A stretch of DNA of 46,378 nt from a virus. The stretch is from positions 1-46,378 of the IMG/VR virus record IMGVR_UViG_3300018476_000004; one strand, given 5' to 3'. Below are positions 1,384-46,378 of the stretch, in pieces. The notes under the pieces were generated by a model, which saw only the letters and a list, made by a program, of their open reading frames with translations, was not told the DNA's origin and did no database searches. Numbering within the stretch: position 1 is the first letter of the stretch; every line of letters begins with the position of its first letter. A program made the position numbers and the translations under genes.

Positions 1384-1385
1384 GC

Positions 1386-1670
1386 ATGACAGACGAGGGT
1401 GATCGACCAATCCAATTGCCACCGCCGGGTTTCGTCGGCGTCGCGGGCCCGGCGAACACGCATTACGGCGCGCCCGTCGGCGGTCGCGCGCGTAGCGTCG
1501 CGCACGAGGCGCTCGATCAATGGCTCGACCGGTGCGGTGCCGTGCCGGTGAAATGGGACGATGGCATATGGCACACGCTCAAGTTCGAGGCCGCGATCGC
1601 CGGATATGACGACGACGGCGAGAGGCTTTGGTCGATCAACGTCGAGCGACGCGAGCGCGAGGAACTATGA
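1386..1670 (+). CDS. Hypothetical small protein, paralogue of 1667..1930
   Basis: ATG 3 nt after the upstream stop. Shares AHEALDQWLD / AHRALDRWLD and a C-terminal DD.G...ER motif with the next ORF. Confidence 0.6.
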   Translation: MTDEGDRPIQLPPPGFVGVAGPANTHYGAPVGGRARSVAHEALDQWLDRCGAVPVKWDDGIWHTLKFEAAIAGYDDDGERLWSINVERREREEL

Positions 1671-1930
1671 CTTTTACCGGTTGCCCTGTCTGTCACAGTC
1701 AACGCGGCGACGACGGCGATTGCCCCCTGTGTGACAAACCATGGGGCCCGATAGTTCGCGGGGACGCGCATCGCGCGCTTGATCGTTGGCTTGACGAGGC
1801 GGAACGCGAAGCGCCCGCCGCACACGCCGCCGGTCGCTCGGGCTACCTCGGGCGGATCAAGCTTTGCGCATTTGTCGACGACGCGGGGATCACTCTGCGC
1901 ATTGAACGGTCGTTCTCGGAGGGTCTGTGA
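1667..1930 (+). CDS. Hypothetical small Cys-rich protein (CPVC...CPLC), paralogue of 1386..1670
   Basis: ATGA overlap with the upstream stop and GTGA overlap with the downstream helicase start. Confidence 0.6.
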   Translation: MTFTGCPVCHSQRGDDGDCPLCDKPWGPIVRGDAHRALDRWLDEAEREAPAAHAAGRSGYLGRIKLCAFVDDAGITLRIERSFSEGL

Positions 1931-3150
1931 ACGCCCCCGCCGCAGCGATCACGCTCGACCCGTCGCAACACCGCGCGGTCGAGCTCACGTGCACCGCACC
2001 GATCGGGATCGTCACCGGCGGGCCGGGCACCGGCAAGTCGACGTGTCTACGGTACGCGCTCGATATCCTCGACGACCGCGGCGAGCGGTACGAGCTCGCC
2101 GCGCCGACGGGCAAAGCCGCCAAGCGCGTCAACGAAACGACCGGGCGGCCGGCGCGCACGATGCACCGTTTGCTCGAGTTCTCACCGCGGCTTGGCTGGC
2201 AACGCAACACCGACAACCCGCTCGACACCGACGTCGTCGTGATTGACGAATCTTCCATGATCGACGTCGAGCTCGCGGCGCGCTTGCTCGAGGCGATCAA
2301 TCCCGAGCGCACGCGGTTGATCTTGATCGGCGACGCCGATCAGTTGCCGCCCGTCGGGCCCGGGCGGGTATTCGGTGACCTCGTCGACGCGGGTATCGTG
2401 CCGACGGCGCGGCTTACGACGTTACACCGCGCCGCGCTGGAATCGTGGGTGTGTGCCAACGCGCCGCGCGTGCTCGCCGGCGACATGCCCGACCTCACGC
2501 CGCGCAAAGATTTTTTGTGGATCGAGTGCGAGCGCGCCGACGACGTGCTTACGCAAGTGCGGCACATGGTGTGCGAGCACATCCCCGAATTCATCGGCGA
2601 CGAGGTGCAAACCCTGATCCCACAACGACCGGGCGTCGCCGGGATCCTTGCGGCGAACCGGGTGCTACAGGCACAGCTCAACCCGCGCGCGGCCGACGCG
2701 CCATTTATCCAACGCGGCCGCGACGGCGACGACGACCGTGCCGAGTTGCGCGCCGGCGACCGCGTGATTCAGACCAAAAACAATTACGACCTCGGCGTGT
2801 TCAACGGCGAGGTCGGCGAGGTCGGCGACATTCTCGGCGGCAAAGTGCTCGTGAACTTTTTTGGCCGCGAATCGATCTTGTACACGCTCGAGCAAGCCAA
2901 CGCGCTGCACCTCGCGTACGCGTTGACCATTCACCGCGCTCAAGGTTCAGAATTTCCGTGGGTCGTCGTCGTGTGTCACTCGACGCACTCATACATTTTG
3001 TCGCGGCAACTGATCTACACGGCGATCACGCGCGCGAAAAAAGGCGTCGTGCTGATCGGTGACGACAAAGGATTGCGGCGCGCGTTGTCGGACGCAAAGC
3101 CGCTCAAACGTTACACGGGGTTGATAGAACGGATCCGAGGTGAGTTATGA
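1927..3150 (+). CDS. RecD-like SF1 DNA helicase motor (lacks the N-terminal region)
   Basis: Walker A GGPGTGKST, motif II VVIDESSM, GDADQLPPVG, QTKNNYDLGVFNGEVG (SH3-like insert), TIHRAQGSEF, YTAITRAKK. Confidence 0.9.
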   Translation: MNAPAAAITLDPSQHRAVELTCTAPIGIVTGGPGTGKSTCLRYALDILDDRGERYELAAPTGKAAKRVNETTGRPARTMHRLLEFSPRLGWQRNTDNPLDTDVVVIDESSMIDVELAARLLEAINPERTRLILIGDADQLPPVGPGRVFGDLVDAGIVPTARLTTLHRAALESWVCANAPRVLAGDMPDLTPRKDFLWIECERADDVLTQVRHMVCEHIPEFIGDEVQTLIPQRPGVAGILAANRVLQAQLNPRAADAPFIQRGRDGDDDRAELRAGDRVIQTKNNYDLGVFNGEVGEVGDILGGKVLVNFFGRESILYTLEQANALHLAYALTIHRAQGSEFPWVVVVCHSTHSYILSRQLIYTAITRAKKGVVLIGDDKGLRRALSDAKPLKRYTGLIERIRGEL

Positions 3151-5515: not shown

Positions 5516-6946
5516 TCAAAACCGCGGGCACGTCGCGAGGTCGATCGCGGGCCATGTGCCGTCGGCCGACTGCCCGAGAGATAGCTGCATCGCGGCCTCG
5601 GTCGTGCGCGCCTCGTGCGATATCCGTTGCACGACGCCGACGTAGTGTTTTTGTGCGATCGTGACCGAGTGCCCGAGTTGCCGCGCGGACATGTACGGCG
5701 CGGCGTCGCCCCAGATCGCCGGCGCACACGTGAGATACGTGCCGCACGTGCACCGAAGTTTTTTGTAATCGAATTCGGGCGCACCGAATTCGGCGATCAC
5801 GCGGTGCCGGGCGACGAGCAACGACTTAATGCTCGCTTGCAAAATCGTGCCCGTGCGGCCCGCGTATGCTGACACGAGGTGCGCTAGCAGCGGCGAGTGA
5901 CCGGTGTCGATCACACGCTCGACGCCGGTTTTACTGACCTCGGCGCGCACCGTGATCAACACGTTGCCGTCGTCGTCGAGCCCGATATCGCGCCACTCGA
6001 TCCAAATCGCCTCGTCGGGGCGTAGCCCGGTGAGCAAGAAAAAAAGCACGATCGCCAGCATGCGCCCGTCGCACTGGCTGATCCGCCCGCCTCGGGTGCG
6101 CTGGCGCGGCGGTGCGGCGTCGTACCGCACGCACGCGGCGAGGATGGCGCGTAGCTCGGCGACCCGCGAGAAACCGCGCTTGACGTGATCCTCGTCGAGT
6201 TGCGCGAGCCCGTCGGCGATATCGTCGCGGGTCAAGTGGATCTTTTCCTGGGTGCGTAGCTCGCCGAGCACCGCCGACAAACCGCGCAGCTCGCGGTTGA
6301 CCGTCGCATGTGCCCTCGGGCCGGTGCGGCCGCACGCCGGGTCGAGCTCGGCGGCAACACGCGAGCCCGCCCATGCCCGCAATACACCCTTGGTGAGTTG
6401 CCGCACCCGCTCGATCGCGAGCCCGGGCGTCGCACACCATGCGAGAAACAGATCACACGCGGTGCGGTATTCCGTTTGGGTGCGCGGGCGGTTTTGCTTA
6501 CCCCACCCGGCGAAATACAGCGCGAACACGTCGGCGATCAAGTCGTCGCCCGAGTAGCGCGGCGTCGCGCCCGCGGCGAGCTCGGCGCGACGGGCCTCGA
6601 GTGACTTGTGTTTATCGATCGCCCAATCGCGGCGGGTTTCAATCGTGCCGGGTTGCACCTTGGCGGGTAGTCGCTCGTAGGTGACCGCGGGCACCCAATT
6701 GCCGGCGGCGTCGCGCACGGGCGGCCGATCCGGATCCTCGTACCGAGCTCGCCAATAGGGTTGTTTCGGGCCCGACGGCGGGATCAGCTTCACGCCGCGG
6801 TGCCTCGGGTCACCGTGCCGGCGTCGTCGCTTGCCGGGCTTGCTAGGCGCCTTAGCGGGCTCACCCGCGGGCGGCGGTGCGCCGAGCGGGTCGAGCGGTG
6901 CGTTTTGCGGTACGAGGCGGAGTCGCGATCCGTCACGGTTTGTCAT
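5516..6946 (-). CDS. int: Tyrosine recombinase / phage integrase
   Basis: LTGLRPDEA (Arg I), LRCTCGTYL and LGHSVTIAQKHY (His/Arg/Tyr region), N-terminal SAM-like region. Confidence 0.9.
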   Translation of the reverse strand: MTNRDGSRLRLVPQNAPLDPLGAPPPAGEPAKAPSKPGKRRRRHGDPRHRGVKLIPPSGPKQPYWRARYEDPDRPPVRDAAGNWVPAVTYERLPAKVQPGTIETRRDWAIDKHKSLEARRAELAAGATPRYSGDDLIADVFALYFAGWGKQNRPRTQTEYRTACDLFLAWCATPGLAIERVRQLTKGVLRAWAGSRVAAELDPACGRTGPRAHATVNRELRGLSAVLGELRTQEKIHLTRDDIADGLAQLDEDHVKRGFSRVAELRAILAACVRYDAAPPRQRTRGGRISQCDGRMLAIVLFFLLTGLRPDEAIWIEWRDIGLDDDGNVLITVRAEVSKTGVERVIDTGHSPLLAHLVSAYAGRTGTILQASIKSLLVARHRVIAEFGAPEFDYKKLRCTCGTYLTCAPAIWGDAAPYMSARQLGHSVTIAQKHYVGVVQRISHEARTTEAAMQLSLGQSADGTWPAIDLATCPRF

Positions 6947-26548: not shown

Positions 26549-28216
26549 TTAGCGGCGCCATGCTTCCGATCCTGCATACGGGTCAAACCCCGTACCGGCG
26601 TACACCGAATTGACCTCGGCGGCGATCGCGTGTTGTGCCGCCGCCGATAGATCCTCCTCGGCGACGAGGCTCGAGGGCTCCCAACACGATAGCGCGAGCG
26701 CGTCGTAACGGTCGGGTGAGCGGCCGAGGATCTTGCGGATCACTTTCTTGTCGGTGACCTTGAGTCGGCCGCCGCGCAGTGTTTGTGTCCACTCGAGCGT
26801 GTGTAGTTCCTTTTCAAGTTTCACATCCTCGACGATCGCGCCCCCATCCCGAAACCACTGCTCGAGGTTGCCCGCGAGCTCGTCACGCAACCGGTCATAG
26901 ATCTTGGGTTTGCGTCGCGCGCCATCGGACGCACGCACCGTCGTAAGCTGAAACGCCGCCGTGTGATCGGCCTCGTACGCACGCAACAAGATCGTGATCT
27001 TCGCGCCGATCGCGCCCTCACGGTCGAGCACGATCACGGGCGTTTCGCGCGGCAGTTTGAATTCAGTGATCAGCACGAGCAATTGCACGAGGGCTTGATC
27101 CTCGGTGAGCCCGCGAAACGGTCGGAACGCGAGCACCTTCAACCCGCGGCGCATGCAAAACATCCACTCGTCACCCATGCCCGACTCGCCCGCCGGGTCG
27201 AGGCCGATGTAGAGCAACCCGGCCTCGGCCGTGTCGTGCCATCGTTGCTCGGCGAGCGCGATCGCGTGCAGGTTGAAAATGCGACCCGACTCGTTGAGCG
27301 CGTGTAACCCCTTGACGCGCACGCGATAGAGTGGCGAATCCTCGCCCCATTCCTCGCGCTTGGCGTCGATCCAATCGCGTGACGCGAGGCCCGGAATCAC
27401 GGCGCGACCTTGCACGACGTTGGGTGTTTCTTCCGAGCTGATCCGGATCGTCTTATAAAAGGCTGATTTGCTGTAAAACGCCTCAAAAAACTCACCCTCG
27501 TTACGGGTCGGGTTGCCGAGCAACAGCGCCTTGGCACCGCCCGCGCGGTTGCCCTCGACGCCCTCAAAGATCGCGTCGGGGATGCCCGAGGCCTCGTCGA
27601 GGATGTACAAAAGATTGCGGCCCGACACGCCTTGCACCGCCTCAGCCTCGCGGGCGGTGAATCCAACGACCTCCCGGAAATCGTCCGACTTGAGCCCGGT
27701 GCGGGCCAGCATGCCGAGGTCGCCGCCGATCATGGCCGAGTGCGGGCACGGGCGTTTGATGATTAGCCCGTCGGGATCGTCGAGCTTGCATTGCACGCAC
27801 CGACCCGACCGAGCCCGTAACATCATGAGCTCACGCCAAAGGATCTGATCCACTTGGCGCGAGGTCGTCGACGACATGATCGCCCGGGCATCCTCGCACG
27901 AGCAAAACCACCATAGCGCGAGGCCCGCCGCGAGGTTCGATTTGCCGACTTTGTGCCCGCTCGCGACCGCCACGCGATCGTAATCGCGCACCGCCTCGAT
28001 CACCTCGATTTGTCGCGACCATGGCTCGACGCCGAGCACCTCGCGGAAAAACTCGATCGGTTTTTGACGATAGTGTGGCGAGGGAAACCGCACGCGGGTC
28101 GACGCGGTCACCTCGGCGCGTATGAGCTCGACGATCGAGCCCGTCATGGTAAGGCGTACCGCCGACGGTCGCGACAGTCGCCGGCGTGCGACCTCCGACG
28201 CGATCGAGCGGGTCAC
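26549..28216 (-). CDS. terL: Terminase large subunit
   Basis: Walker A VASGHKVGKS, nuclease-half pattern, size. GTG 28216 forms a GTGA overlap with the upstream stop; the alternative ATG is at 28147. Confidence 0.85.
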   Translation of the reverse strand: MTRSIASEVARRRLSRPSAVRLTMTGSIVELIRAEVTASTRVRFPSPHYRQKPIEFFREVLGVEPWSRQIEVIEAVRDYDRVAVASGHKVGKSNLAAGLALWWFCSCEDARAIMSSTTSRQVDQILWRELMMLRARSGRCVQCKLDDPDGLIIKRPCPHSAMIGGDLGMLARTGLKSDDFREVVGFTAREAEAVQGVSGRNLLYILDEASGIPDAIFEGVEGNRAGGAKALLLGNPTRNEGEFFEAFYSKSAFYKTIRISSEETPNVVQGRAVIPGLASRDWIDAKREEWGEDSPLYRVRVKGLHALNESGRIFNLHAIALAEQRWHDTAEAGLLYIGLDPAGESGMGDEWMFCMRRGLKVLAFRPFRGLTEDQALVQLLVLITEFKLPRETPVIVLDREGAIGAKITILLRAYEADHTAAFQLTTVRASDGARRKPKIYDRLRDELAGNLEQWFRDGGAIVEDVKLEKELHTLEWTQTLRGGRLKVTDKKVIRKILGRSPDRYDALALSCWEPSSLVAEEDLSAAAQHAIAAEVNSVYAGTGFDPYAGSEAWRR

Positions 28217-28560
28217 GGGCGCGCGATAGGGTGCACGGTCGCGCCGCCGGCGGCCGCGTCGACCGCGGCGACGACCTCGGCACCCATAAGCCGATTGGCC
28301 CGAGTGTAATCGTCGAGGCGTTCGGTCACGAGGCCCGACGAGTCGGCGTGCAGTAGCTTGACGACCTCGCCGGTGAGCTCGAGCAGTCGCGCCCGCTCGC
28401 GGCCCTCGAGTCGGGCGAGCTCGTCGAGCTCGGCGACGATCGCACTTAGCTGGCGCGTGCTCGCCGCCCGCGTGCGCCGCAACTCGAGCAATGTCGCCCG
28501 GCACTCCTCGCGTTTGTGAAACACCTCGACGTGTCTAGACACATCCGGTTGCTTAGTCAT
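28213..28560 (-). CDS. Hypothetical coiled-coil protein upstream of TerL (possible small terminase)
   Basis: First gene of the late operon, GTGA-coupled to terL; no recognisable HTH. Confidence 0.45.
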   Translation of the reverse strand: MTKQPDVSRHVEVFHKREECRATLLELRRTRAASTRQLSAIVAELDELARLEGRERARLLELTGEVVKLLHADSSGLVTERLDDYTRANRLMGAEVVAAVDAAAGGATVHPIARP

Positions 28561-37463: not shown

Positions 37464-37988
37464 TTAGGCCCCTTTCTCGAACTCGTTGCCGAGCGACAAC
37501 CAACCGACGCGCGTGCGTCGCGCGAATAGTTCAACGTACGGCCCGCCGGGTATGAGGGCCTCGGCGATTTCGTAGATGCGATCGGGCTTGCGACTATGCT
37601 CGAGCACGGGCGCGGCGAAGCGCGATCGGATCGATCGGTTGGCAACTTGCACGCGACCGCGCACGCCGATCAAGCACACCTCGTGCGCCGCTCGAACATA
37701 GCGGCCCATGCCGAAAAACGCTTTACCAGTGCGTGTTTCCTTGTCCCAAACGATCTCGCTTTTGATCGTGAAACCCCATGCCGCGGCAACGCGCAACGCC
37801 TCGTGTTGCATCGCGGCAACCCGCCACAACATGAGCAAACAATCCGCCGCCAACAGCGGCAACGGAAACCGCTCCAACTCGGCGACCGTCATGCATGGGT
37901 AGTGCTTCGCCGCGCCGCGGCCGGGTCCCGGCAACGCGTCGCCGAACTTCCACGGCGGATCGGCCATCAGCACGCGTGCGCCGCTCAT
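37464..37988 (-). CDS. MT-A70 family N6-adenine DNA methyltransferase
   Basis: DPPW catalytic motif (LMADPPWKF), HYPCMTV, EHSRKPD. Confidence 0.9.
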   Translation of the reverse strand: MSGARVLMADPPWKFGDALPGPGRGAAKHYPCMTVAELERFPLPLLAADCLLMLWRVAAMQHEALRVAAAWGFTIKSEIVWDKETRTGKAFFGMGRYVRAAHEVCLIGVRGRVQVANRSIRSRFAAPVLEHSRKPDRIYEIAEALIPGGPYVELFARRTRVGWLSLGNEFEKGA

Positions 37989-38593: not shown

Positions 38594-38940
38594 ACTATCC
38601 CTATCAAACTAATGTAGGTGGCCCCACGTACATCTCGGTGGCCCCACATCGACGTGTAGGTGGCCCCACCTACAGGCCAACGCAATCCCAATGATTTCGC
38701 GGGTGGCCCCAGTGGCCCCAGTTGGCCCCACCAAAAATAGGAGGGCTTAAGAGAAAAACTCTCATTGTGAAGCGATCTGTTTTTGCGACTCGATCTCAAC
38801 AACAACGAATTCTGCTGAGACTCTCCTATATTTGGTGGGGCCAACTGGGGCCACTGGGGCCACCCTGGGAATGTCCAACCAAATCCAGCGTTTAGCTGGC
38901 GTGTCGGTGGCCCCACACCAATGTAGGTGGCCCCAGTCAT
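38590..38940 (-). CDS. Questionable 116-aa ORF that contains the entire iteron/AT-rich origin
   Basis: ATGA overlaps at both ends argue for translation. Against it, the translation is dominated by iteron-encoded repeats (GATY, WPQ, GPP). Confidence 0.3.
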   Translation of the reverse strand: MTGATYIGVGPPTRQLNAGFGWTFPGWPQWPQLAPPNIGESQQNSLLLRSSRKNRSLHNESFSLKPSYFWWGQLGPLGPPAKSLGLRWPVGGATYTSMWGHRDVRGATYISLIGIV

Positions 38941-38949: not shown

Positions 38950-41483
38950 GGTCCCGTATCCAACTGTAGGATAACTAAACGGGGCCTACCAACACCAGCT
39001 ATACGTACTTTGGCGTCGTAGTGGCTAACTTCCGTACTCAGCCATCCACGGTCACGCCAGCACCGAAGCACCTCGTTAGGCGACAGGCGGTGCGAGTCGA
39101 GAAAGACCCTAAGCGAGGCCGGGATAAACAACAACTGATATTCACTACGCCGGAAACCGTGCCGCGTTTTGCCCGTGTGCCGCTCGAGTTTCTCGCCTCC
39201 GTCGCTCGCCGTTTCGAGCAACGGAAACGCGTCGGGCTCAGCCATGGCCCAATCGCGCACGAGCTCGAGGGCCCGCTCGGCGAGCGGCAACACGATTTCG
39301 CGCGCGTCGCGCTGCAAGTAGAGCGCGTGCATGGTGGCGCCGCCGGGTGCGCCAAGCCCGAGGCGGTGCGCGATGATCTCGGCGGTCATGAGCGTTGCGA
39401 AGTAGCCCGCGACGCGGCCTTGCAACGGGTCCGGTGCTGATTCGCGTAGTTTTTTCGTAATCACTTTGTACGAGGCCCGAAACGGCGCCCAATCGTCGAT
39501 CTCGAGCAGGTTTTCAATCCAACGCCGGCCGAACATGCCCGAGCGCGCGATACACGCCTCGCGTAGCTCGTCGACATCGGCCGCGGTGAGCTCACCAAAG
39601 CCGTTGACCGGCAACTGGATTACCCGCACTTGCGCGCCCGTCATGGTGTTGTGATCGGCGAGCGGCTTTTCGCCGGTCGACAACACGACGGTGCGCCACG
39701 TCGGCGTTTCGCGTAGCGACAGATCCGCTTTGCCGCGCGCGCGCCCGCCGCCGTTGATCAAGCTGTAGAGCATGCGCTCGAGGCCAACCGGGTCGGACGC
39801 GCCGACCTCGTCGTAACACTGCGGGAGGTCGTTGAGCTGTTGGGCCCGCAGCTCGGCTGCGGTCGCCGTCGTGTTCCATGATCCGAGCCACGCCTCGCAC
39901 GTCGGATCACCAAACACGCTCGCCGCGATCTTGAGCTGTGAGGTCTTGCCCCGCGACGAGTCGCCCGGTAGGTGGATCGCGAAATTGGGCACGTCCAGCG
40001 GCTCGAGCAACGTCGCCGCGAGCGCGCCCGCAATCATCGCGGCGCACACCGGTGAGGCCGCCCACGCTCGGCGTAGCAAGTCGATGTGCTCTTGCAGTGA
40101 GTCGCCGCGCGCGGTGAGTGCGGCGAACAATTTTTTGCGGTCGCCGCGCGTGTCGAGCGTGATCGCGCGTTCGCGGTCGTCGGCAAACCGCGGGCGGTCG
40201 AGTACGAACGCGCGCTCACCCTCGAACGTGTGCCAGCCGGTACGCCCGACGCAATACACACGGTCGAGGTTGCCGTTGACGCGCTCGAGTTCTTCCAACC
40301 AGTCGACGATCTTCGGGGCCGAGTTGGAGGTCACCGGCGCGCCGTACATGCCGAGCTCGGCGACCATGGTGCGCGAGTCGATCAGCGCTTTACGGTTGAC
40401 GACGAGCGGGATCCACTTGTCGTCACGCTCATAGCAAATCTCGACCCGCGCCTCGTGCGTGTAGTAGTCGGCGAGGTGCCGCACGAGCAAGATCGGCCGC
40501 GCCGCGACCTTGACGTCGCCGTGTTTGAGGTCGCCGGTTTTCCAAAGCCCGCCGTCACGACGGATCTCGTAACCCTCGGGCAAGCGTAGAGTCTCGGCGA
40601 TCGGCGCGCCGTTGAGCGCACGCACGTTCTTCGCCATGGTGAGCGGCGACTTGGGATCGAGGCCCTCGAGTTTTTGGGCGGTGTCCAAAAGCGCACGCGT
40701 CGGCGCCTCACCAAACGCGCCGAGGTAATCGTCGATCCCTTTGTGCTCGCGCGTCGGCGGCGCGACAAACAGCACCTCGGCCGCGCCGGCCGCGGTGAGC
40801 ACACCGACGAGGCGTTGCGCCGCGTTCATGACTTGATCGTTGTCGCGGGCGTCGGCGTCGAACACGATCACGTGCCGGCGGCCGGCGATCGTGACGTGCT
40901 CGCGGATCAGCGGGTGCAATCGCCACTCGCCGGTTTCGTCGCGGTGCGCGACGTCGAGCCAATTCCACACGCCAGTGAGGCCGATCGTTGGGAGGCCGAG
41001 TTGGTCGAGGGCCAGCCCCTTTTTCTCGCCCTCGGTCCAATGCAGCGGCCGCGTGACGTCGCGGTACCACGCACCGTTGTCACGCCGAGCTCGCGGCGGG
41101 AAGTACACGAGCACGCCGGCGGTGCGCTCGTCGGCTTGCTCGTAGCGGATCGCCTTGCCGCGCTTGTTTGTGCGCGGGTTTTTCGGCTTAACCCGATAGT
41201 CGTACGGCTCGGTCGCGCCGGGTATGTAGAGCGGAAACACGAGGGCCCAACCATGGTGCCGCGGAAACGTGCGGCGACGTAACAGCTCGGCGATCGCCTT
41301 GGCGCGGTGCTCGGTGTACAGGTTGGCAAGCTCGATCGTTTCGTCGGTGAGGCCCGACGCGCGCAACTGATCGAGGTGCTCGGGCACGAGCCCGCGCTTG
41401 TCGGGCAAGCTCGCAACGAGCCTTAGATGACGCGGCGAGGCGTCGCCGGCGTCGTCGCCGCCGTCGTGTGTTTCCTCGGCCAT
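38937..41483 (-). CDS. Bifunctional primase-helicase (Toprim/DUF3854-like N-terminus, DUF927-like SF3 helicase C-terminus)
   Basis: WTEGEKKGLA and VIVFDADARDN (Toprim acidic motifs), Walker A GDSSRGKTS, 848 aa. Confidence 0.8.
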   Translation of the reverse strand: MAEETHDGGDDAGDASPRHLRLVASLPDKRGLVPEHLDQLRASGLTDETIELANLYTEHRAKAIAELLRRRTFPRHHGWALVFPLYIPGATEPYDYRVKPKNPRTNKRGKAIRYEQADERTAGVLVYFPPRARRDNGAWYRDVTRPLHWTEGEKKGLALDQLGLPTIGLTGVWNWLDVAHRDETGEWRLHPLIREHVTIAGRRHVIVFDADARDNDQVMNAAQRLVGVLTAAGAAEVLFVAPPTREHKGIDDYLGAFGEAPTRALLDTAQKLEGLDPKSPLTMAKNVRALNGAPIAETLRLPEGYEIRRDGGLWKTGDLKHGDVKVAARPILLVRHLADYYTHEARVEICYERDDKWIPLVVNRKALIDSRTMVAELGMYGAPVTSNSAPKIVDWLEELERVNGNLDRVYCVGRTGWHTFEGERAFVLDRPRFADDRERAITLDTRGDRKKLFAALTARGDSLQEHIDLLRRAWAASPVCAAMIAGALAATLLEPLDVPNFAIHLPGDSSRGKTSQLKIAASVFGDPTCEAWLGSWNTTATAAELRAQQLNDLPQCYDEVGASDPVGLERMLYSLINGGGRARGKADLSLRETPTWRTVVLSTGEKPLADHNTMTGAQVRVIQLPVNGFGELTAADVDELREACIARSGMFGRRWIENLLEIDDWAPFRASYKVITKKLRESAPDPLQGRVAGYFATLMTAEIIAHRLGLGAPGGATMHALYLQRDAREIVLPLAERALELVRDWAMAEPDAFPLLETASDGGEKLERHTGKTRHGFRRSEYQLLFIPASLRVFLDSHRLSPNEVLRCWRDRGWLSTEVSHYDAKVRIAGVGRPRLVILQLDTGPAPL

Positions 41484-41490
41484 GCGGGCG

Positions 41491-42117
41491 CTACGCGTGC
41501 ACGCGGCGCTTGGTTTTGGAGCTCGGCTGTTTGGTCTTGAGCTTGCCGCCGACCTTGCCGCCGACCTTGGCTTTGCCGGCGGGCTTGCGCTTCGTGGGTT
41601 TCACGCGGTCGAGATAGGCGGCTTGGTTAGGGCCAACCTCGCTACCGTCGTCGTCGAGCTCGTCGCGGTCGGGGTCGACGAGGTCGGGGTCGAGCTCGTC
41701 GGCGTGCACCTCGCCGTGTTCGTCACCCTCGGGCAAGCCGCCCGGGTCCGACGGCAACGGTAACGACCCTTGACGATCGGCGGCGGTCATCGCGCGTTGC
41801 TCGACGGTGTCGCCGGTGTCTTGGCGCACGAGCGTGTACACGTTTTGGACAAAGTCGGCGATCCACTTGCATACGACGACCCTGTTTTCCTCCTCGGAAT
41901 CGATCACGTGTGCGAGCTTGTTGCGCTGATCAGTCGCCGCGAAGATTTTCTTGTTCACGGCGCGGCGCTCGGCCTTGAGCGTGTCGACCAACAACTCAGC
42001 CTCGGCCATCGCGTCGCCGCGCATGCGTAGCTCGTCGTCGGTGAGCTTGCAGGGCAACTCACGCTCAATCGCTATGCCCTCGTCATTCGGTGCGGTGCTG
42101 CCGTTTCCCTTTGCCAT
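41491..42117 (-). CDS. Hypothetical protein with coiled-coil, acidic and Lys-rich C-terminal segments
   Basis: ATG 42117; ends KPTKRKPAGKAKVGGKVGGKLKTKQPSSKTKRR. Confidence 0.6.
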   Translation of the reverse strand: MAKGNGSTAPNDEGIAIERELPCKLTDDELRMRGDAMAEAELLVDTLKAERRAVNKKIFAATDQRNKLAHVIDSEEENRVVVCKWIADFVQNVYTLVRQDTGDTVEQRAMTAADRQGSLPLPSDPGGLPEGDEHGEVHADELDPDLVDPDRDELDDDGSEVGPNQAAYLDRVKPTKRKPAGKAKVGGKVGGKLKTKQPSSKTKRRVHA

Positions 42118-42186
42118 GATCGGACCTATCGGGTTGGGGTTTCGTTGGTCAGTCTGCCGGCTAGAGCTGCACGCACGGCGAGCCAC

Positions 42187-42573
42187 TTACGCGGCGACTC
42201 TCACCGTGCGCGCGCGGCGCCTCGCCTTGGCGAGCTTAGTAACCTTGCCGACGCGTTTACGTTTGCCCGTGAGTGCGGCGCGCTTGCGTTTCGCCTTGGG
42301 TTTACGCTTGCGGGGCGCGGCGGCGCGCTTGCGTTTGACCGCGCGGGTTGGCTTTGCCGGTTGCAGCGCGAGGTACAGCTTGTGTATCGCGTACACCTCG
42401 GCAACGCTCACCGCCTCGCCGGTCGCGAGACTGATCGCGAGCGCGCTCGCGTAGTTCGGCGGGCGCTTGCCAGTGCAAATGGCATGCACGGTGCCGTATG
42501 AAAGGCCGGTCGCGCGCTTGATTCGCGACAGTGCGCCGTGTTCCTGGTCGGCGAACCATTTTGCAAAGTGCAT
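42187..42573 (-). CDS. cro: Cro-like HTH regulator with a long Lys/Arg-rich C-terminal tail
   Basis: SRIKRATGLSYGTVHAICTGKR is an HTH; first gene of the leftward operon, divergent from the CI-like gene. Confidence 0.7.
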   Translation of the reverse strand: MHFAKWFADQEHGALSRIKRATGLSYGTVHAICTGKRPPNYASALAISLATGEAVSVAEVYAIHKLYLALQPAKPTRAVKRKRAAAPRKRKPKAKRKRAALTGKRKRVGKVTKLAKARRRARTVRVAA

Positions 42574-42581
42574 GACCGCGA

Positions 42582-42621
42582 GTTATACCGGTGCCCGTTT
42601 ATCACGTCTATGGGATAAACG
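42582..42621 (-). promoter_or_regulatory. Leftward early promoter/operator: TAGACG-N17-TATAAC overlapped by the dyad GTTTATC-N10-GATAAAC (42597..42620)
   Basis: The 25-nt core (42596..42620) is identical at 24/25 positions to 43921..43945 in the opposite orientation. The -10 ends 8 nt before the cro-like ATG. Confidence 0.65.
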
Positions 42622-42670
42622 CGCCAGCCAAAACCCCGCGTCGCACCTACATTCGACTAGCAAACACGCC

Positions 42671-42706
42671 TAGTCCGCGCGCGGACTATTGCGCGCGCGG
42701 TATAGT
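42671..42706. promoter_or_regulatory. Two overlapping palindromes (TAGTCCGCGCGCGGACTA at 42671..42688; ACTAT-N12-ATAGT at 42685..42706) with a TATAGT -10-like hexamer (42701..42706) upstream of the CI-like gene
   Basis: 18-bp perfect palindrome verified by hand; located 20-55 nt upstream of ATG 42727. Confidence 0.5.
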
Positions 42707-42726
42707 TGCGCTTACGTAGTGGGCCG

Positions 42727-43302
42727 ATGGCGCGACCCAAAACTAGGCCCGATCCGAACGCGGCCGATCCGTTGAGCGAACCGACGGTCAACCGGCGGCT
42801 GCACGCGGCGTATCTGGCAAAGGGTTGGACCCGTGCCGATTTTGCGCGCCACATGGGCGTGAAGTACCAAACGGTCGATCGGTGGGATACCGGCGAGTTT
42901 AACCCCGGTCTCGACACCTTGTTTCGCGCCGCCGAGCTCGTCGGCTACACGCCCACGCAGCTGCTACACGGCCGCGACGGTAGTGCGAGTGCGCGCGAGC
43001 CCGTGCTTAACGACGACGACATGACCACCGAGGAACGCGCGGCGCTCGACCTCGTGTTACGCGAGTTCGCCGAGGCGGTGACACCCGCGTTTGTCGCGTC
43101 GTACCGAGCCGAGATTGCGGGCGGCGCGACACGCGCGGCGGCCGCGGCCAAGGCTCGCGACCTCGCGCTCGAGGCCCGTGCGTTCGCCATGAAGCGCCGT
43201 GCGCTATCCGACGCGGTGTTGCTCGGCGGCAAGCCCGCGACCGATTTTGCCGCGCCCGTCGCGCCCGCCACGCCGGCGGACAAGCGCCGCCGCAAGCGTT
43301 AG
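42727..43302 (+). CDS. cI: CI-like XRE-family repressor
   Basis: HTH WTRADFARHMGVKYQTVDRWDTG; divergent from the cro-like gene and flanked by the two operator copies. Confidence 0.75.
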   Translation: MARPKTRPDPNAADPLSEPTVNRRLHAAYLAKGWTRADFARHMGVKYQTVDRWDTGEFNPGLDTLFRAAELVGYTPTQLLHGRDGSASAREPVLNDDDMTTEERAALDLVLREFAEAVTPAFVASYRAEIAGGATRAAAAAKARDLALEARAFAMKRRALSDAVLLGGKPATDFAAPVAPATPADKRRRKR

Positions 43303-43305
43303 CGC

Positions 43306-43734
43306 TTACGGCAACTGGCACAACGCCGCCGCGAGGTCGTCGACCTCGACGCTGCGTAGGTCGGTCACCACCCTAGTCCTTATAGAGGGGGGGGGGGGGG
43401 GGGGGGCGGCGGGAGGGGCGCCCCCCCCTTGGGGAAGCGACGCCCGCGCCGCGAGGCGGGCGGCGGTGTCACGCCGCGGCCCCGTGGATGGGGGGGGGGG
43501 GGGGGGGGGGGGGGGTACTTGGGCTAGGTGCCGACCGACGTTGGCGAGCACGTGCTCGGCACATGCGCGGGCGATCGAGCGATCAGAGCCCTCGAACACC
43601 GCGTCGTCGAGCAACAGACACGCGGCGAGCGCACCGGGTTTCGTCGGCAACCGTAGGCCCGTATGTGACGCGACTACGTTGGTAATCGCCGTGATCGTGT
43701 GCTGCATGTGCTGAGTATTCCCCGCCCTGTGCAT
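43306..43734 (-). CDS. Hypothetical ORF reading both C-tracts as polyproline (Pro9 and Pro6); candidate phase-variable gene or artefact
   Basis: Open for 142 codons through both homopolymers, with a plausible N-terminal 73 aa. The opposite strand is also open, so the evidence is weak. Confidence 0.3.
   Translation of the reverse strand: MHRAGNTQHMQHTITAITNVVASHTGLRLPTKPGALAACLLLDDAVFEGSDRSIARACAEHVLANVGRHLAQVPPPPPPPPPSTGPRRDTAARLAARASLPQGGGAPPAAPPPPPPSIRTRVVTDLRSVEVDDLAAALCQLP
43387..43406. repeat. G20 homopolymer (followed by a C8 run at 43421..43428)
   Basis: Counted directly. Confidence 0.9.
43490..43515. repeat. G26 homopolymer
   Basis: Counted directly. Confidence 0.9.
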
Positions 43735-43920
43735 GCGCCGGATCCAAGATCAGATCGGGTCGGTCTTTATATAGCCAAGAGGCACTTTTGGCGAGAATGT
43801 CCGCATTTTGGTGTGATGTGGTCGCCGGGTGTGTGTCACGCGCATCACTGATCCGCGATCCCCGCTTGCCTCGCGCGATCGCACGGCTCGTCGCCGCCGC
43901 CCGCAATTGTCACGCGTGCG

Positions 43921-43960
43921 GTTTATCCCATTGACGTGATAAACGTGGCCGGCGTATACC
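43921..43960 (+). promoter_or_regulatory. Rightward early promoter/operator: TTGACG-N18-TATACC overlapped by the dyad GTTTATC-N10-GATAAAC (43921..43944)
   Basis: Near-identical inverted copy of 42596..42620; 40 nt upstream of the GGAGG-preceded ATG 44001. Confidence 0.65.
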
Positions 43961-44000
43961 CCGCGTGCAGTCGATACCACGCAAAGCGGAGGGCTACCGC

Positions 44001-45227
44001 ATGGCATGGAACTACCGGCAATACGGGTCGGCGATCGATCCCGTACACAAGTCGCACTTGAACGATATTACCGGCGACTGGGGTTGCCCGACGCGGTTTC
44101 GTTATGCAATGGACGCGCGCGCGGCGGCCGGCGGCGCGGTGTACAACCTCGACAAGCCGGTGCGCGGCGACGCGGCATGCGGTACCGCGGCGCACGAAAC
44201 GATCGCGCGCGTACTTACGCACCCTGAGACGCGCGACCGAGTGCTCGCGGGGCCCGGTGTCGTGTCGCGTGATCATGTTGCGCGCACCCTAAACGAAGAA
44301 CTCAAACGCGAGGCCGGCGGCCGAAGGATCGAGTGGTACGACGACGACGCCGGCGAGGTGATCACCGACCGCGTGTCGATGGTGTGCGGGTTGCTCGACG
44401 ACTTGCACCGGCACGTCGCCGAGGTCGTACTCGTCGAGCCCGCATTTCTAGTCAAGCTCGGCGCGCACTGGTTGAGCGGGCACATTGACCTCGTATACCG
44501 CCCGCGGCGTAACCCGGCCGGGCTTGCGCTGGCCGATTGGAAAACGGGCGCGTCGCGGCCGCTACCAATCGAGCTCGATCACGGTTGGGAGGCGGGCGTG
44601 TATTCGCTCGCGGTGCACTCGGGCGTGTTCCTCGACCGCGCGCAACTCGAGGTGATTCCCGGCGGCGAGGCGGGCGTGACGACGGTCGCGTGCGGCACGC
44701 ACACGGTCACGCACCCGTCGCGGTACATGGCCGAACGCGAGTGCGCCGAGCGCGTGCTTGCCGCGGCGGCGACCGCGGCCGAGCTCAAAGGCGCGTCGCC
44801 CGGCGTGCCGCTACAAAGCCTCTATCGCTTTCCGGGCGAGATCTATCACGTGCACCTCGGCGACTACGTGCCGTACAAGCGCGGCGGCAAGAAAGCGATC
44901 AAGCGGCCGGAAGACCTCGCGTGGTACCGACTCGCGCAACCCGCAACGGTGAAGTTTGAGGCCGGCGCGTTGCGCGGGCCCGCGTGGCTACCGGTGCGGA
45001 TCACCGAGCACGATATCCCGCGCGTCGAGTACCGCGTGCGCAATGTCGTGGGCATGATCCGCATGGGGCGATTCATCGACCAAATCGGCGACCGCTGTGC
45101 CAAGTGCCCGTACGCGGGTGATTGCTTGACCGGCGGGTACGCACTGCGCGGCGACGCGCGCAAGGACGCCGAACGCGCGTTGCAAGGTACCGACACGAGC
45201 TCGGCCGACGACCTCGTGATCGATTGA
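44001..45227 (+). CDS. PD-(D/E)XK exonuclease, Cas4/RecB-like with a C-terminal Cys cluster
   Basis: GHIDLVY...LADWKTG nuclease core; an N-terminal Cys (WGCPTRF) plus CAKCPYAGDC at the C-terminus resemble the Cas4-type Fe-S ligand arrangement. RBS GGAGG lies 9 nt before the ATG. Confidence 0.7.
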   Translation: MAWNYRQYGSAIDPVHKSHLNDITGDWGCPTRFRYAMDARAAAGGAVYNLDKPVRGDAACGTAAHETIARVLTHPETRDRVLAGPGVVSRDHVARTLNEELKREAGGRRIEWYDDDAGEVITDRVSMVCGLLDDLHRHVAEVVLVEPAFLVKLGAHWLSGHIDLVYRPRRNPAGLALADWKTGASRPLPIELDHGWEAGVYSLAVHSGVFLDRAQLEVIPGGEAGVTTVACGTHTVTHPSRYMAERECAERVLAAAATAAELKGASPGVPLQSLYRFPGEIYHVHLGDYVPYKRGGKKAIKRPEDLAWYRLAQPATVKFEAGALRGPAWLPVRITEHDIPRVEYRVRNVVGMIRMGRFIDQIGDRCAKCPYAGDCLTGGYALRGDARKDAERALQGTDTSSADDLVID

Positions 45228-45287
45228 AACGACACCGACACTGCACGGCAGCACGAAACCCAACCCAACCCAACGAGAGTGACCGAC

Positions 45288-46217
45288 ATGTCCAAGACCA
45301 AAACGGCAGCGCCCGACGTACCCGCCCCCGCCCCCGCGCCCGGCCCGGCGCCCGCGCCCACAGCCAACGGCGGCGGCGGCGGCGACGGCCAGCTTGCGTT
45401 AGCGACGCACGATGAACTCGCGGCGCTCGGCATGACCGACGACGAGCTCGGCGACGACGGGCTCGCGCAAGTCGACCGCGACGACATCAAGATCCCGGCG
45501 TATGCCCTCAACGTGAAAGGCAAAGGGCCCGACGGCCGGCCGCTCGATTTTTCCGCGTACTACAACACCGTCGACGAGACGCGAAAACTCACGGTCAACG
45601 CCGCGTTTTTGCACTTGCACAAGTCGAACCTGTATTCGAAGTGGAATGAGCCGAAGAACCAAACCGACGTAATTTGCCGGTCGTATGATCGCATCACGGG
45701 CACCATGACCGCCGACGGGCGCGAGCGGCCTTGCGAGGGTTGTCCTGACGCGGTGTGGTACCGCGACAACGACGGCAAGCGGCGCAAGAATTGCTCGCCG
45801 GTGTACAACGTCTTCGCCGTCGACCGCGACACGTCCACACCGTTTGTCGTGCGGTTCAAACGCACCGCGTTGCCCGTAATCAAAACGTACTTACAAAAGC
45901 ATCACATCGGTCGGCGGATCGTCAAAGGCGTGCGGCTGAACTATCCGTTGCACGTGTTCAGCGTCGAGCTTACGAGCACGATGTCAGACAACGGCAACTA
46001 TGCGATCCCGATCTTGACGCGCGGTAAGTTGCTCGAGCGCGGCGAGGTCATGTCACTCGCCGCCAACGCCAAGGTGCTGCGCGAGCAAGTGTTGGGGATC
46101 TTGTCGCACGTCGAAACCGTCGCCGAGTCGCGGGAGGGTGCGGCCGATGACGGCGGCGACACGTCATTCGAGCCCGAGAAGTACGCCGCCGACGTCGGTA
46201 AGGATTTCGTCGCGTGA
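45288..46217 (+). CDS. Hypothetical protein with a CxxC-containing core; possible ssDNA-binding/annealing partner of the exonuclease
   Basis: Adjacent to the exonuclease in the early operon; ICRSYD...RPCEGCPDAVW...KNC motif. The function is an inference from position only. Confidence 0.5.
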   Translation: MSKTKTAAPDVPAPAPAPGPAPAPTANGGGGGDGQLALATHDELAALGMTDDELGDDGLAQVDRDDIKIPAYALNVKGKGPDGRPLDFSAYYNTVDETRKLTVNAAFLHLHKSNLYSKWNEPKNQTDVICRSYDRITGTMTADGRERPCEGCPDAVWYRDNDGKRRKNCSPVYNVFAVDRDTSTPFVVRFKRTALPVIKTYLQKHHIGRRIVKGVRLNYPLHVFSVELTSTMSDNGNYAIPILTRGKLLERGEVMSLAANAKVLREQVLGILSHVETVAESREGAADDGGDTSFEPEKYAADVGKDFVA

Positions 46218-46227
46218 GGTTTAGCCA

Positions 46228-46378
46228 ATGGACGATCTAGAACAAAAGCTCACGGCCGAGGCGGTGACGGCGTTGGTTCCATTCGAGCCGATCATGCGCT
46301 GGTTTGCTTTTGGGCATCTACCGCCCAAGCTCGCCGATGTGTCGTGTTGGTTTGCCGTGCTCGCAGTGGAAGTGACCG
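46228..46378 (+). CDS. N-terminal part of the junction-spanning hypothetical ORF (continues at 1..230)
   Basis: ATG 46228 (MDDLEQKLTAEAVTALVPFEP...), in frame with 9..230 after the 123-bp overlap is removed. Confidence 0.6.
   Translation, partial: MDDLEQKLTAEAVTALVPFEPIMRWFAFGHLPPKLADVSCWFAVLAVEVT
46256..46378. repeat. Terminal direct repeat, copy 2 (identical to 1..123)
   Basis: Base-by-base identity read from the sequence. Confidence 0.95.

What the first reader, a model, noticed from the sequence alone, without database searches (positions are those of the whole stretch)
43387..43515. Two giant G homopolymers (G20 and G26) 83 bp apart inside the immunity region
Runs of 20 and 26 consecutive G (43387..43406 and 43490..43515), plus a C8 run (43421..43428), lie between the repressor stop (43302) and the rightward early promoter (43921). 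Tracts this long are not expected in a compact phage genome. There are several readings:
- They would be extreme hotspots for slipped-strand length change.
- They should form G-quadruplex or i-motif structures. The C8 run could also pair with either G tract.
- If they are real, they could act as a stochastic (phase-variable) switch, or as a structural insulator or terminator between the convergent cI transcript and the neighbouring ORF, right at the decision centre of the phage.
- They are also exactly what two-colour Illumina poly-G artefacts or mis-joins look like, so verification comes first.
Basis: seen in the sequence. Interest (0 to 1): 0.75.

Follow-up and report, generated by a model that had tools for sequence, protein, structure and literature searches.

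The report
Unstable G-tract insertion in phage gene
The two giant runs of G are the edges of a roughly 130-145-base block of G/C-rich filler DNA found only in this phage, inserted in frame into a small conserved gene beside the repressor; it is most likely a recent, length-unstable scar that breaks assemblies, not an evolved switch.

Summary
G20 (43387-43406), C8 (43421-43428) and G26 (43490-43515) are present, and no other G run in the 46-kb circular contig exceeds 6.

The tracts are not intergenic. A minus-strand ORF (43306-43734) reads through both as poly-proline. Three homologues of that ORF and 14 related loci have no such tracts. Compared with them, the window carries a ~144-nt (48-codon) in-frame insertion at the tip of an inverted repeat: CCTTATAGA-G20-83 nt-G26-TACTTG.

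Two other assemblies of the same phage (100% identical) break exactly at both tracts and report different lengths (G11+/G19+ versus G20; G5/G28+ versus G26). Only this contig holds the 83-nt bridge, which matches nothing else searched.

Adapter read-through followed by poly-A, and G runs on the same strand on both sides, argue against a two-colour poly-G artefact.

My best reading (about 0.55) is a real, recent, hypermutable filler insertion with no evolved function, whose tract lengths and internal structure are unresolved. A library or assembly artefact remains plausible (about 0.25). Read-level checking of SRR6958482 would decide.

The parts
43387..43406 (+). G20 tract (C20 in the sense of the small ORF; read as Pro codons)
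   Evidence: Other assemblies of the same phage end here with G11 and G19.
43407..43489 (+). 83-nt spacer, 84% G+C, containing the C8 run. It is present only in this assembly.
   Evidence: composition G38 C32 A7 T6. No source found in the window, IMG/VR, GTDB genomes with a 25-mer, Rfam or 5.8 billion proteins in six frames. Fold is not better than shuffles. GC is flat across codon positions.
43421..43428 (+). C8 run. With flanking CG it is a perfect 10-bp complement of the 3' end of the G20 tract.
   Evidence: I8; hairpin in the MFE and centroid structures.
43490..43515 (+). G26 tract (C26 in the sense of the small ORF)
   Evidence: The Logan contig starts with G28 + TACTT. The ENA contig has Read-2 adapter + G5 + TACTT.
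43378..43521 (-). Estimated full insertion: 144 nt = 48 codons, CCTTATAGA-G20-83 nt-G26-TACTTG. It is translated as QVPPPPPPPPPSTGPRRDTAARLAARASLPQGGGAPPAAPPPPPPSIR. Edges are uncertain by a few nt.
   Evidence: Protein alignment A2 and homologues P0002, P0003 and L001. Reconstruction restores the 10-residue linker of the homologues. GC by codon position is .85/.85/.81, against .66/.49/.77 and .67/.42/.88 in the flanking ORF parts.
43306..43734 (-). Small conserved ORF of unknown function (142 aa with the insertion, about 94 aa without). It converges on the repressor gene and is interrupted by the insertion. The start codon is uncertain (ATG at 43734, or the downstream ATG 9 codons later).
   Evidence: Homologues at the syntenic position in L001, L053 and L054. 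No Pfam, PHROG or PDB match.
43360..43372 (.). Left arm of the inverted repeat that brackets the insertion (GTCGGTCACCACC), followed by CCTAG at 43372
   Evidence: I5: 13 nt, 85% complementary; CCTAG occurs only 6 times in the genome.
43527..43539 (.). Right arm of the inverted repeat (GGTGCCGACCGAC), preceded by CTAGG at 43524
   Evidence: I5; CTAGG occurs only 7 times. Joint chance of both pentamers within 15 nt of the two junctions is about 4e-6.
42727..43302 (+). HTH (Cro/C1-type) repressor-like gene, 191 aa from the ATG, convergent with the small ORF
   Evidence: Pfam HTH_3 E = 1e-6. PHROG transcriptional repressor/regulator families, best E = 4.6e-10. Called as 191 aa in public assemblies.
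42597..42620 (-). 24-bp operator/promoter-like palindrome (leftward copy)
   Evidence: exactly two copies in the window, none in 100 shuffles.
43921..43944 (+). 24-bp operator/promoter-like palindrome (rightward copy, overlaps TTGACG), upstream of the PD-(D/E)XK nuclease gene 44001-45227

Best explanation
The two G tracts are not separate regulatory elements. They are the two ends of one block of G/C-homopolymer-rich filler DNA, 129 nt between the outer tract edges and about 144 nt in all. The block is specific to this phage lineage.

Where it sits. The block lies at the tip of an inverted repeat, inside the variable linker of a small conserved minus-strand gene (43306-43734). That gene lies next to, and converges on, the repressor-like gene of a temperate myovirus-type phage. 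As assembled, the block is in frame and would be translated as a proline-rich linker, so the conserved C-terminus of the small protein is kept.

Shown. The insertion is absent from every relative. It has non-coding composition. Its position is the apex of an inverted repeat. The tracts are present in the reads behind three different assemblies.

Inferred. (a) The DNA existed in the sample and was not made by the sequencer. (b) It arose recently, as an error-prone repair or replication scar at a break in the palindrome, with G-rich filler that was largely untemplated or captured from elsewhere. (c) It persists because the linker tolerates it.

Consequences.
- Tracts of 20 to 28 or more G must slip at very high rates. 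In silico, only 2 of 9 tract-length classes keep the conserved C-terminal 21 residues in frame, so the gene is effectively hypermutable.
- The block blocks or fragments short-read assembly. The true tract lengths, and possibly the internal structure, are therefore not established.
- I see no evidence that it is an evolved switch, insulator or terminator.
For: Tract presence and uniqueness within the window.

The ORF reads through both tracts.

Insertion relative to homologues:
- L001 has the same synteny with a contiguous 91-aa ORF and no tract.
- P0002 and P0003 (64% and 55% identity) have 10 residues where the window has 58.
- Deleting 43378-43521 restores AEHVLANVGRHLATRVVTDLRSVEVDDLAAALCQLP, the same length as the homologues.

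No G or C run of 7 or more in the 11 loci L012-L020, L053 and L054, and none of 8 or more in L001-L005.

Composition: the insert is flat across codon positions (.85/.85/.81), while both flanking ORF parts show normal coding periodicity.

Inverted repeat and CCTAG/CTAGG bracketing.

The tracts are real in the reads. The ENA MEGAHIT contig and two Logan contigs are 100% identical to the window over 2.4-10.5 kb. They carry ...CCTTATAGA+G11 or G19 and G5 or G28+TACTTGGG....

Not a dark-cycle artefact. Adapter read-through is followed by 19 A/T, which is typical of four-colour run-off (my knowledge). The G26 tract precedes good sequence on the + strand.

The phage is otherwise ordinary and complete: 123-nt terminal overlap; integrase, terminase, portal, sheath and baseplate genes.
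Against: Only this one assembly contains the 83-nt bridge, and the other two stop in the tracts. So continuity across the block rests on a single assembler run, on reads I could not see.

All three assemblies probably derive from one sample (100% identity). There is therefore no independent biological replicate.

The MEGAHIT contig passes from TACTT through only 5 G into the Read-2 adapter. That could mean a real DNA end there rather than a continuous tract.

Clusters of G/C homopolymers of similar size (130-240 bp) occur in many unrelated public assemblies, often at contig ends or beside N gaps. Assemblies clearly can acquire such blocks as junk.

No known bacterial or phage process is documented to make 20-28-nt G runs on the same strand on both sides of a spacer.

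The in-frame state has about a 2/9 chance anyway, and it depends on tract lengths that are unreliable.
Confidence: 0.55

Rival explanations
1. Library or assembly artefact. The phage contig is really open at this point: either a hard-to-sequence palindrome or a physical break. The JGI assembly closed the circle with low-complexity G/C-rich molecules or reads that do not belong to the phage. On this reading the 129-nt block, or at least the 83-nt bridge and the stated tract lengths, is not part of the genome.
For: Two of three assemblies of the same phage are linear and end exactly in the tracts, one with Illumina adapter attached. Tract lengths disagree between assemblies. The 83-nt piece is found nowhere else, not even in proteins called on the other assemblies of this sample. 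G/C-homopolymer clusters of 130-240 bp are recurrent in unrelated public assemblies, often at contig ends or scaffold gaps. Many abut short inverted repeats, as this one does (mean closing-stem score 5.5 versus 4.35 in controls).
Against: All three assemblies agree on the odd AT-rich flanks plus G runs on both sides, so the G runs are in the reads. The platform looks four-colour (poly-A after the adapter). G on the + strand on both sides cannot come from 3'-end signal loss or from symmetric 3' tailing; both predict G...C. The contig is a clean cycle with a 123-nt overlap, and the tracts (20 and 26 nt) are much shorter than that overlap. If 123 was the assembler's largest word size (my inference), reads must physically link the flanks, the tracts and the spacer. 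A ligation-type TruSeq library has no step that makes G runs (my knowledge).
Confidence: 0.25
2. Evolved contingency locus. The tracts are kept by selection as a stochastic ON/OFF or variant switch for the small immunity-region protein, so that a phage population hedges between states that affect the lysis-lysogeny decision.
For: The tracts lie inside an ORF. Slippage would toggle the frame, and two tracts allow restoration. The assembled state is in frame. Phage contingency loci exist (7-11 G in Fletchervirus receptor-binding genes), and repeats of 6 nt or more are reported enriched in phage regulatory genes (PMC12633550).
Against: No relative has any tract. The insert has non-coding composition. 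Tracts of 20-28 nt are far longer than any characterised switch and would mostly sit in OFF frames (7 of 9 classes). The function of the gene is unknown. It is seen in one population only.
Confidence: 0.08
3. Structural DNA/RNA element: a G-quadruplex, i-motif or hairpin acting as terminator or insulator between the convergent repressor and small-ORF transcripts.
For: G20 and G26 can in principle fold into G4 (general knowledge). A perfect 10-bp G:C hairpin with C8 is predicted. The site is 85 nt downstream of the repressor stop.
Against: It lies inside a coding region. No terminator-like site is predicted there. The whole-block fold z-score is only -2.1 and the spacer alone -0.5 and +0.3. It is absent from all relatives, which manage the same convergent arrangement without it.
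Confidence: 0.04
4. Physical genome ends. The virion or replicative DNA is linear with termini at ...CCTTATAGA and TACTTGGG..., carrying G:C extensions (a cos-like, telomere-like or nuclease-cut site), and the contig is a false circle.
For: The adapter is directly joined to G5-TACTT in the MEGAHIT contig. All non-JGI contigs end at these two points. The site is a palindrome.
Against: The site is about 15 kb from the terminase gene and about 8 kb from the integrase. Relatives are contiguous across the homologous codons, and their contigs end elsewhere. Both halves of the interrupted ORF are conserved and in frame. The Logan contig shows at least 28 G before TACTT, so G5 is not the only end.
Confidence: 0.05

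Closest known systems
Hypermutable polyG tracts in Campylobacter Fletchervirus phages, and contingency loci in coliphages T2/T4 (Sorensen et al. 2021, cited in PMC12633550)
   Same: A homopolymer inside a phage ORF whose slippage shifts the reading frame. A regulatory or unknown-function gene context is reported as enriched for such repeats.
   Different: Known tracts are 6-11 nt, conserved within a phage group, and tied to a phenotype. Here there are two tracts of 20 to 28 or more nt bounding foreign filler, in a single lineage, with no relative carrying them and no known gene function.
Bacterial phase-variable homopolymeric tracts (Neisseria, Haemophilus and Campylobacter contingency genes; Bordetella fim promoter poly-C). 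From my knowledge.
   Same: The slipped-strand mechanism and frame or promoter switching logic would apply.
   Different: Those tracts are typically 7-17 nt, are maintained by selection and are conserved at orthologous loci. The present tracts fail the conservation test.
Filler-DNA or fill-in insertions left by non-homologous end joining (Ku/LigD) at double-strand breaks in mycobacteria and Streptomyces. From my knowledge.
   Same: A one-off insertion of sequence with no local template, at a break-prone palindromic site, tolerated where the product stays in frame. Soil, high-GC setting.
   Different: Documented bacterial NHEJ additions are 1 to a few nt, or captured genomic fragments. Long G homopolymers have not been described. 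The host and its repair genes are unknown here.
Poly-G artefact of two-colour Illumina chemistry and low-complexity junk in assemblies
   Same: Long G runs that stop contigs. Similar G/C clusters are common in public assemblies.
   Different: Run-off after the adapter is poly-A rather than poly-G. G lies on the same strand on both sides. The tracts are internal to a closed contig and shorter than the 123-nt terminal overlap.

Membership tests
Phase-variable contingency locus (homopolymeric repeat) | Homopolymer located in an ORF or promoter so that a length change alters expression | tested here: met
   Both tracts lie in ORF 43306-43734. In-silico length changes shift the frame, and only 2 of 9 length classes keep the conserved C-terminus.
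Phase-variable contingency locus (homopolymeric repeat) | Tract length polymorphic within the population | tested here: inconclusive
   Three assemblies give G11+/G19+/G20 and G5/G26/G28+. Biological variation cannot be separated from PCR, sequencing or assembly effects without reads.
Phase-variable contingency locus (homopolymeric repeat) | Tract maintained at the orthologous position in related genomes | tested here: not met
   No G or C run of 7 or more in 11 related loci, and none of 8 or more in five others. Homologues of the ORF have a 7-10-residue linker instead.
Phase-variable contingency locus (homopolymeric repeat) | Switching linked to a phenotype | not testable with these tools
   Gene function is unknown. 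An experiment is needed.
Two-colour Illumina poly-G artefact | Data from a two-colour instrument (no signal is called as G) | tested here: not met
   The public MEGAHIT contig of the same phage starts with T19 + P7/index/Read-2 adapter, i.e. run-off called as A. The interpretation rests on my knowledge of the platforms; the run metadata were not seen.
Two-colour Illumina poly-G artefact | G runs only at the 3' ends of reads, giving X-G(n) and C(n)-Y in one orientation | tested here: not met
   Both tracts are G on the + strand. G26 or G28 precedes TACTTGGG, and C5 followed by adapter is read on the opposite strand.
Intrinsic terminator / insulator | G+C-rich stem-loop followed by a T run, located between genes | tested here: not met
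   No terminator-like site at 43300-43560. The site is inside an ORF. Only TT follows the G:C8 hairpin.
G-quadruplex / i-motif regulatory element | Four or more G runs able to stack; folding shown; position conserved | tested here: inconclusive
   The sequence requirement is trivially met. Conservation is not met. Folding is not testable here.
MITE / small transposable element | Terminal inverted repeats, target-site duplication, multiple copies | tested here: not met
   The insert ends (CCTTATAGAG... / ...TACTTG) are not inverted repeats. CTAG on both sides is equally explained by the pre-existing palindrome. No second copy in the window, IMG/VR or GTDB (25-mer).
Phage genome terminus (cos/pac/telomere) | Fixed ends next to packaging or resolution genes, at the same site in relatives | tested here: not met
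   Terminase lies at 26549-28504 and integrase at 5516-6946. No protelomerase was identified among the 19 larger ORFs scanned against PHROGs; the other ORFs were not scanned. Relatives are contiguous across the site. The adapter junction at G5 leaves a residual doubt.
NHEJ-type filler insertion | Insertion without local template at a break site; host encodes Ku/LigD | tested here: inconclusive
   No template for the 83 nt in the phage or the databases. The site is a palindrome apex. The host is unknown, so Ku/LigD is not testable.

The most novel reading that the evidence does not exclude
The block is one example of an unrecognised natural class: 130-240-bp clusters of long G/C homopolymers inserted at the tips of G+C-rich hairpins or palindromes in high-GC bacteria and their phages. 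These would be scars of break repair in which a polymerase synthesises long, largely untemplated G runs. They would be under-reported because short-read assemblies break at them and curators dismiss them as junk. In this phage the scar has turned an immunity-region gene into an extreme hypermutable locus.
Probability: 0.1. Interest if true: 0.75.

Novelty: new variant of a known kind. Interest (0 to 1): 0.38.

Why it matters
If the block is real, G tracts of 20 to 28 or more nt inside a phage gene would be by far the longest homopolymeric hypermutable site reported in a phage; known ones are 6-11 nt. It sits beside the repressor, so it could be used to ask how such tracts arise, and how fast they decay, in an organism with a short generation time.

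It also matters practically. The contig is presented as a closed circular genome, but the closure runs through the one place where other assemblers fail. The annotated 142-aa protein with poly-proline stretches may therefore be partly an assembly product.

The survey shows that similar G/C clusters sit in many public genomes, including 'complete' ones. This deserves a systematic look, whichever way it resolves.

Tried and rejected
1. Near-identical phages. Megablast of 41000-46378 against 50,697 GenBank phages gave no match. The JGI metagenome scan found only relatives of 68% identity or less. There is therefore no independent sample of this lineage.

2. Source of the 83-nt spacer. All of these found nothing:
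- blastn-short against the window and all loci, chance matches of 16 nt or less
- a 33-mer in IMG/VR
- a 25-mer in GTDB genomes
- Rfam
- six-frame peptides against 5.8 billion proteins, which hit only the window's own ORF
It is not a copy of phage DNA and not a known RNA.

3. Element ends. CACCCTAGTCCTTATAGA gave one chance hit in an AT-rich phage. TCCTTATAGAGGGGGGGG gave none. A multi-copy mobile element was rejected.

4. Restriction-cut model (CCTAGG cut, fill-in, CTAG duplication). CCTAGG is the most depleted palindromic hexamer against base composition (1 observed, 15.8 expected), but this is explained by general CTAG depletion (Markov expectation 1.0). Removing the insert plus one CTAG leaves the ORF out of frame. 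Removing 43378-43521 restores it. So I prefer a pre-existing palindrome to a target duplication.

5. Symmetric 3'-tailing (TdT or Adaptase-type library) and dark-cycle models. Both predict G...C geometry, not G...G. The Adaptase paper gave no tail composition.

6. Function of the small ORF. Pfam, PHROGs and a PDB profile search gave nothing.

7. MAFFT DNA alignment across the insertion misaligned the 3' part. It was replaced by codon-level manual alignment and reconstruction.

8. GC-skew profile: uninformative for this site.

9. Run accession SRR6958482: not found in the paper library. Cluster look-up gave no sample accession.

Full report
**Observation.** Everywhere else the longest G run is 6 and the longest C run is 6. 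The tracts are extreme outliers and cannot be chance.

**Setting.** The contig is a temperate, contractile-tailed phage.
- It encodes an integrase (5516-6946), large terminase (26549-28504), portal, protease, capsid, sheath, tape measure and baseplate.
- It also encodes a DUF927/DUF3854 primase-helicase, a RecD2-like helicase and a PD-(D/E)XK nuclease.
- A 24-bp palindrome, GTTTATCCCAT(A/T)GACGTGATAAAC, occurs exactly twice, in opposite orientation, at 42597-42620 and 43921-43944. Between the two copies lie an HTH repressor-like gene (42727-43302, +) and, converging on it, a small minus-strand ORF (43306-43734).
- Outside the two copies, a Cro-like gene runs left and the nuclease operon runs right.

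So 'immunity region' is a fair description. However, the tracts are not in a gap between genes. The small ORF reads through both of them as proline codons.

**The tracts bound an insertion.** The closest relative in IMG/VR (L001; nuclease 68% identical) has the same gene order. Its small ORF is contiguous at 91 aa and ends ...AERVLEHIAEHVPGHDVQAVDVDELVAALCVLE.
- A protein search with the tract-free sequence found two more homologues, P0002 and P0003 (64% and 55% identity), from unrelated ENA and Logan samples. Both have 10 residues between ...GRHL and VEVDEL.... The window has 58 (alignment A2).
- Deleting 43378-43521 (144 nt, 48 codons: CCTTATAGA-G20-83 nt-G26-TACTTG) gives AEHVLANVGRHLATRVVTDLRSVEVDDLAAALCQLP, the same length as the homologues.
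- The ORF parts on either side have normal coding periodicity (GC by codon position .66/.49/.77 and .67/.42/.88, like the nuclease at .70/.49/.82). The insert is flat at .85/.85/.81.
- No G or C run of 7 or more occurs in 11 related loci, and none of 8 or more in five others.
- The insert sits at the tip of an inverted repeat (43360-43372 / 43527-43539). This includes CCTAG and CTAGG, pentamers that occur only 6 and 7 times in the genome. Their joint chance of lying within 15 nt of the two junctions is about 4e-6.

**Other assemblies of the same phage.** Exact-protein look-ups found the phage in ENA assembly ERZ27251438 (MEGAHIT contig k141_3783, 46,225 bp) and in Logan assemblies of SRR6958482 (contigs of 41,498 and 4,570 bp). 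All are 100% identical to the window over 2.4-10.5 kb.
- All of these contigs end at the tracts. The ENA contig starts with T19 + P7 + index + Read-2 adapter + GGGGG + TACTTGGGC and ends ...CCTTATAGA + G11.
- The Logan contigs end ...CCTTATAGA + G19 and start G28 + TACTTGGGC.
- Three things follow. The odd AT-rich flanks and the adjoining G runs are in the reads, not invented by one assembler. The tract lengths are not reproducible. The 83-nt bridge exists only in the JGI contig (the window).

**Is it a sequencing artefact?** The classic two-colour artefact is unlikely.
- Run-off past the adapter is called as A, not G (interpretation from my knowledge of the chemistry).
- The right-hand tract lies 5' of good sequence on the + strand. 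On the opposite strand it is read as C followed by adapter, and these are real base calls.
- Signal loss and symmetric 3'-tailing both predict G(n)...C(n) across a junction, not G(n)...G(n).
- The tracts (20 and 26 nt) are far shorter than the 123-nt terminal overlap. If that was the assembler's largest word size (my inference), reads must physically link the flanks, tracts and spacer.

I therefore think the G runs were in the DNA that was sequenced.

Caution is still needed.
- Most are G-rich junk at contig ends or beside N gaps.
- Some are internal 130-240-bp G/C clusters in high-GC genomes from several technologies, including a 'complete' Microbacterium chromosome.
- Many abut short inverted repeats.

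Assemblies evidently can contain such blocks. I cannot tell from sequence alone whether they are junk or real.

**What the block is not.**
- The 83-nt spacer has no match in the phage, IMG/VR, GTDB (25-mer), Rfam or 5.8 billion proteins in six frames. It folds no better than shuffles.
- No terminator-like site is predicted at the block.
- The insert ends are not inverted repeats, and no second copy exists, so it is not a MITE.
- The site is far from the terminase and integrase genes, and relatives are contiguous across it, so it is not a conserved cos, att or telomere site.

**Most likely explanation (confidence about 0.55).** This is a real, recent, lineage-specific insertion of G/C-rich filler at the apex of a palindrome. 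It is tolerated because it falls in the length-variable linker of the small protein.
- How it was made is inference only. I favour error-prone repair or replication restart at a break in the palindrome, with largely untemplated G-rich synthesis or captured DNA.
- No documented bacterial process makes such long same-strand G runs. That remains unexplained.
- Tracts this long must slip constantly. In silico, only 2 of 9 length classes keep the conserved C-terminus. The gene is therefore hypermutable in effect, but nothing indicates that this is selected.

**Rivals.**
- Library or assembly artefact: about 0.25.
- Evolved contingency switch: about 0.08.
- Physical termini: about 0.05.
- G4 element or terminator: about 0.04.

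**Comparison with known systems.** The nearest known biology is the polyG contingency tracts of Campylobacter Fletchervirus phages (7-11 G) and the contingency loci recently described in T2/T4, where repeats are reported enriched in regulatory genes (PMC12633550). This case shares the in-ORF homopolymer and the frame-shifting logic. It fails the conservation criterion, is two to three times longer, is paired around foreign filler, and has no known phenotype. I file it as a new variant of a known kind, conditional on read-level confirmation.

**Verdict.** The proposed regulatory roles are not supported. The warning to verify was apt, though for reasons other than two-colour chemistry. Interest is moderate (0.38): striking if real, but it is a single lineage with unknown gene function, no conservation and unresolved assembly. 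The decisive test is simple and public: inspect the reads of SRR6958482 across 43,300-43,600.

Noticed in passing
L006/L021 1-85 (ENA ERZ27251438 contig k141_3783): A public MEGAHIT contig of this phage begins with 19 T plus a full Illumina P7/index (GTAGCCGT)/Read-2 adapter. The deposited assembly was therefore made from untrimmed reads and carries adapter contamination.
   Followed up: partly
GTDB and IMG/VR loci L023-L134 (e.g. L088 1411-1579, L035 1155-1367, L049 3524-3708, L031 rc 234-340): Clusters of long G/C homopolymers (130-240 bp; pairs of G18 or longer 55-100 nt apart) occur in at least 120 representative genomes and 30 viral contigs. They are mostly in high-GC taxa and come from all sequencing technologies. 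Many are at contig ends or N gaps, but some are internal, and several abut short inverted repeats. Whether they are junk or biology is unresolved.
   Followed up: partly
window 412-3150: The RecD2-like helicase appears split. The N-terminal OB/HHH domains are in one ORF (412-1383) and the helicase core in another (1927-3150). Two small ORFs without Pfam matches (1386-1670, 1667-1930) lie between them.
   Followed up: partly
window 38694-38743 and 38823-38872: A 50-nt inverted repeat (92% complementary, 79 nt apart) full of GGCCCCA(G/C)T-type iterations. It lies in the gap just downstream of the primase-helicase gene and is a candidate replication origin.
   Followed up: no
window 42597-42620 and 43921-43944: An exact 24-bp palindromic motif (TTTATC-N10-GATAAA core overlapping TTGACG) is present only twice, in inverted orientation, bracketing the repressor cassette. 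These are likely paired operator/promoter sites for divergent early transcription.
   Followed up: partly
whole window: CTAG is strongly depleted (42 observed, 150 expected from base composition). CCTAGG is the most depleted palindromic hexamer (1 observed, 15.8 expected), though this is explained by the CTAG depletion.
   Followed up: yes
L054 2501-2872 (P0002): One homologue of the small ORF lacks the stop codon at the usual position and carries a 35-residue C-terminal extension, so the 3' end of this gene is variable among relatives.
   Followed up: no
window 37464-37988: An MT-A70-family DNA methyltransferase gene lies in the early-left operon, according to the gene table of the ENA contig.
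   Followed up: no
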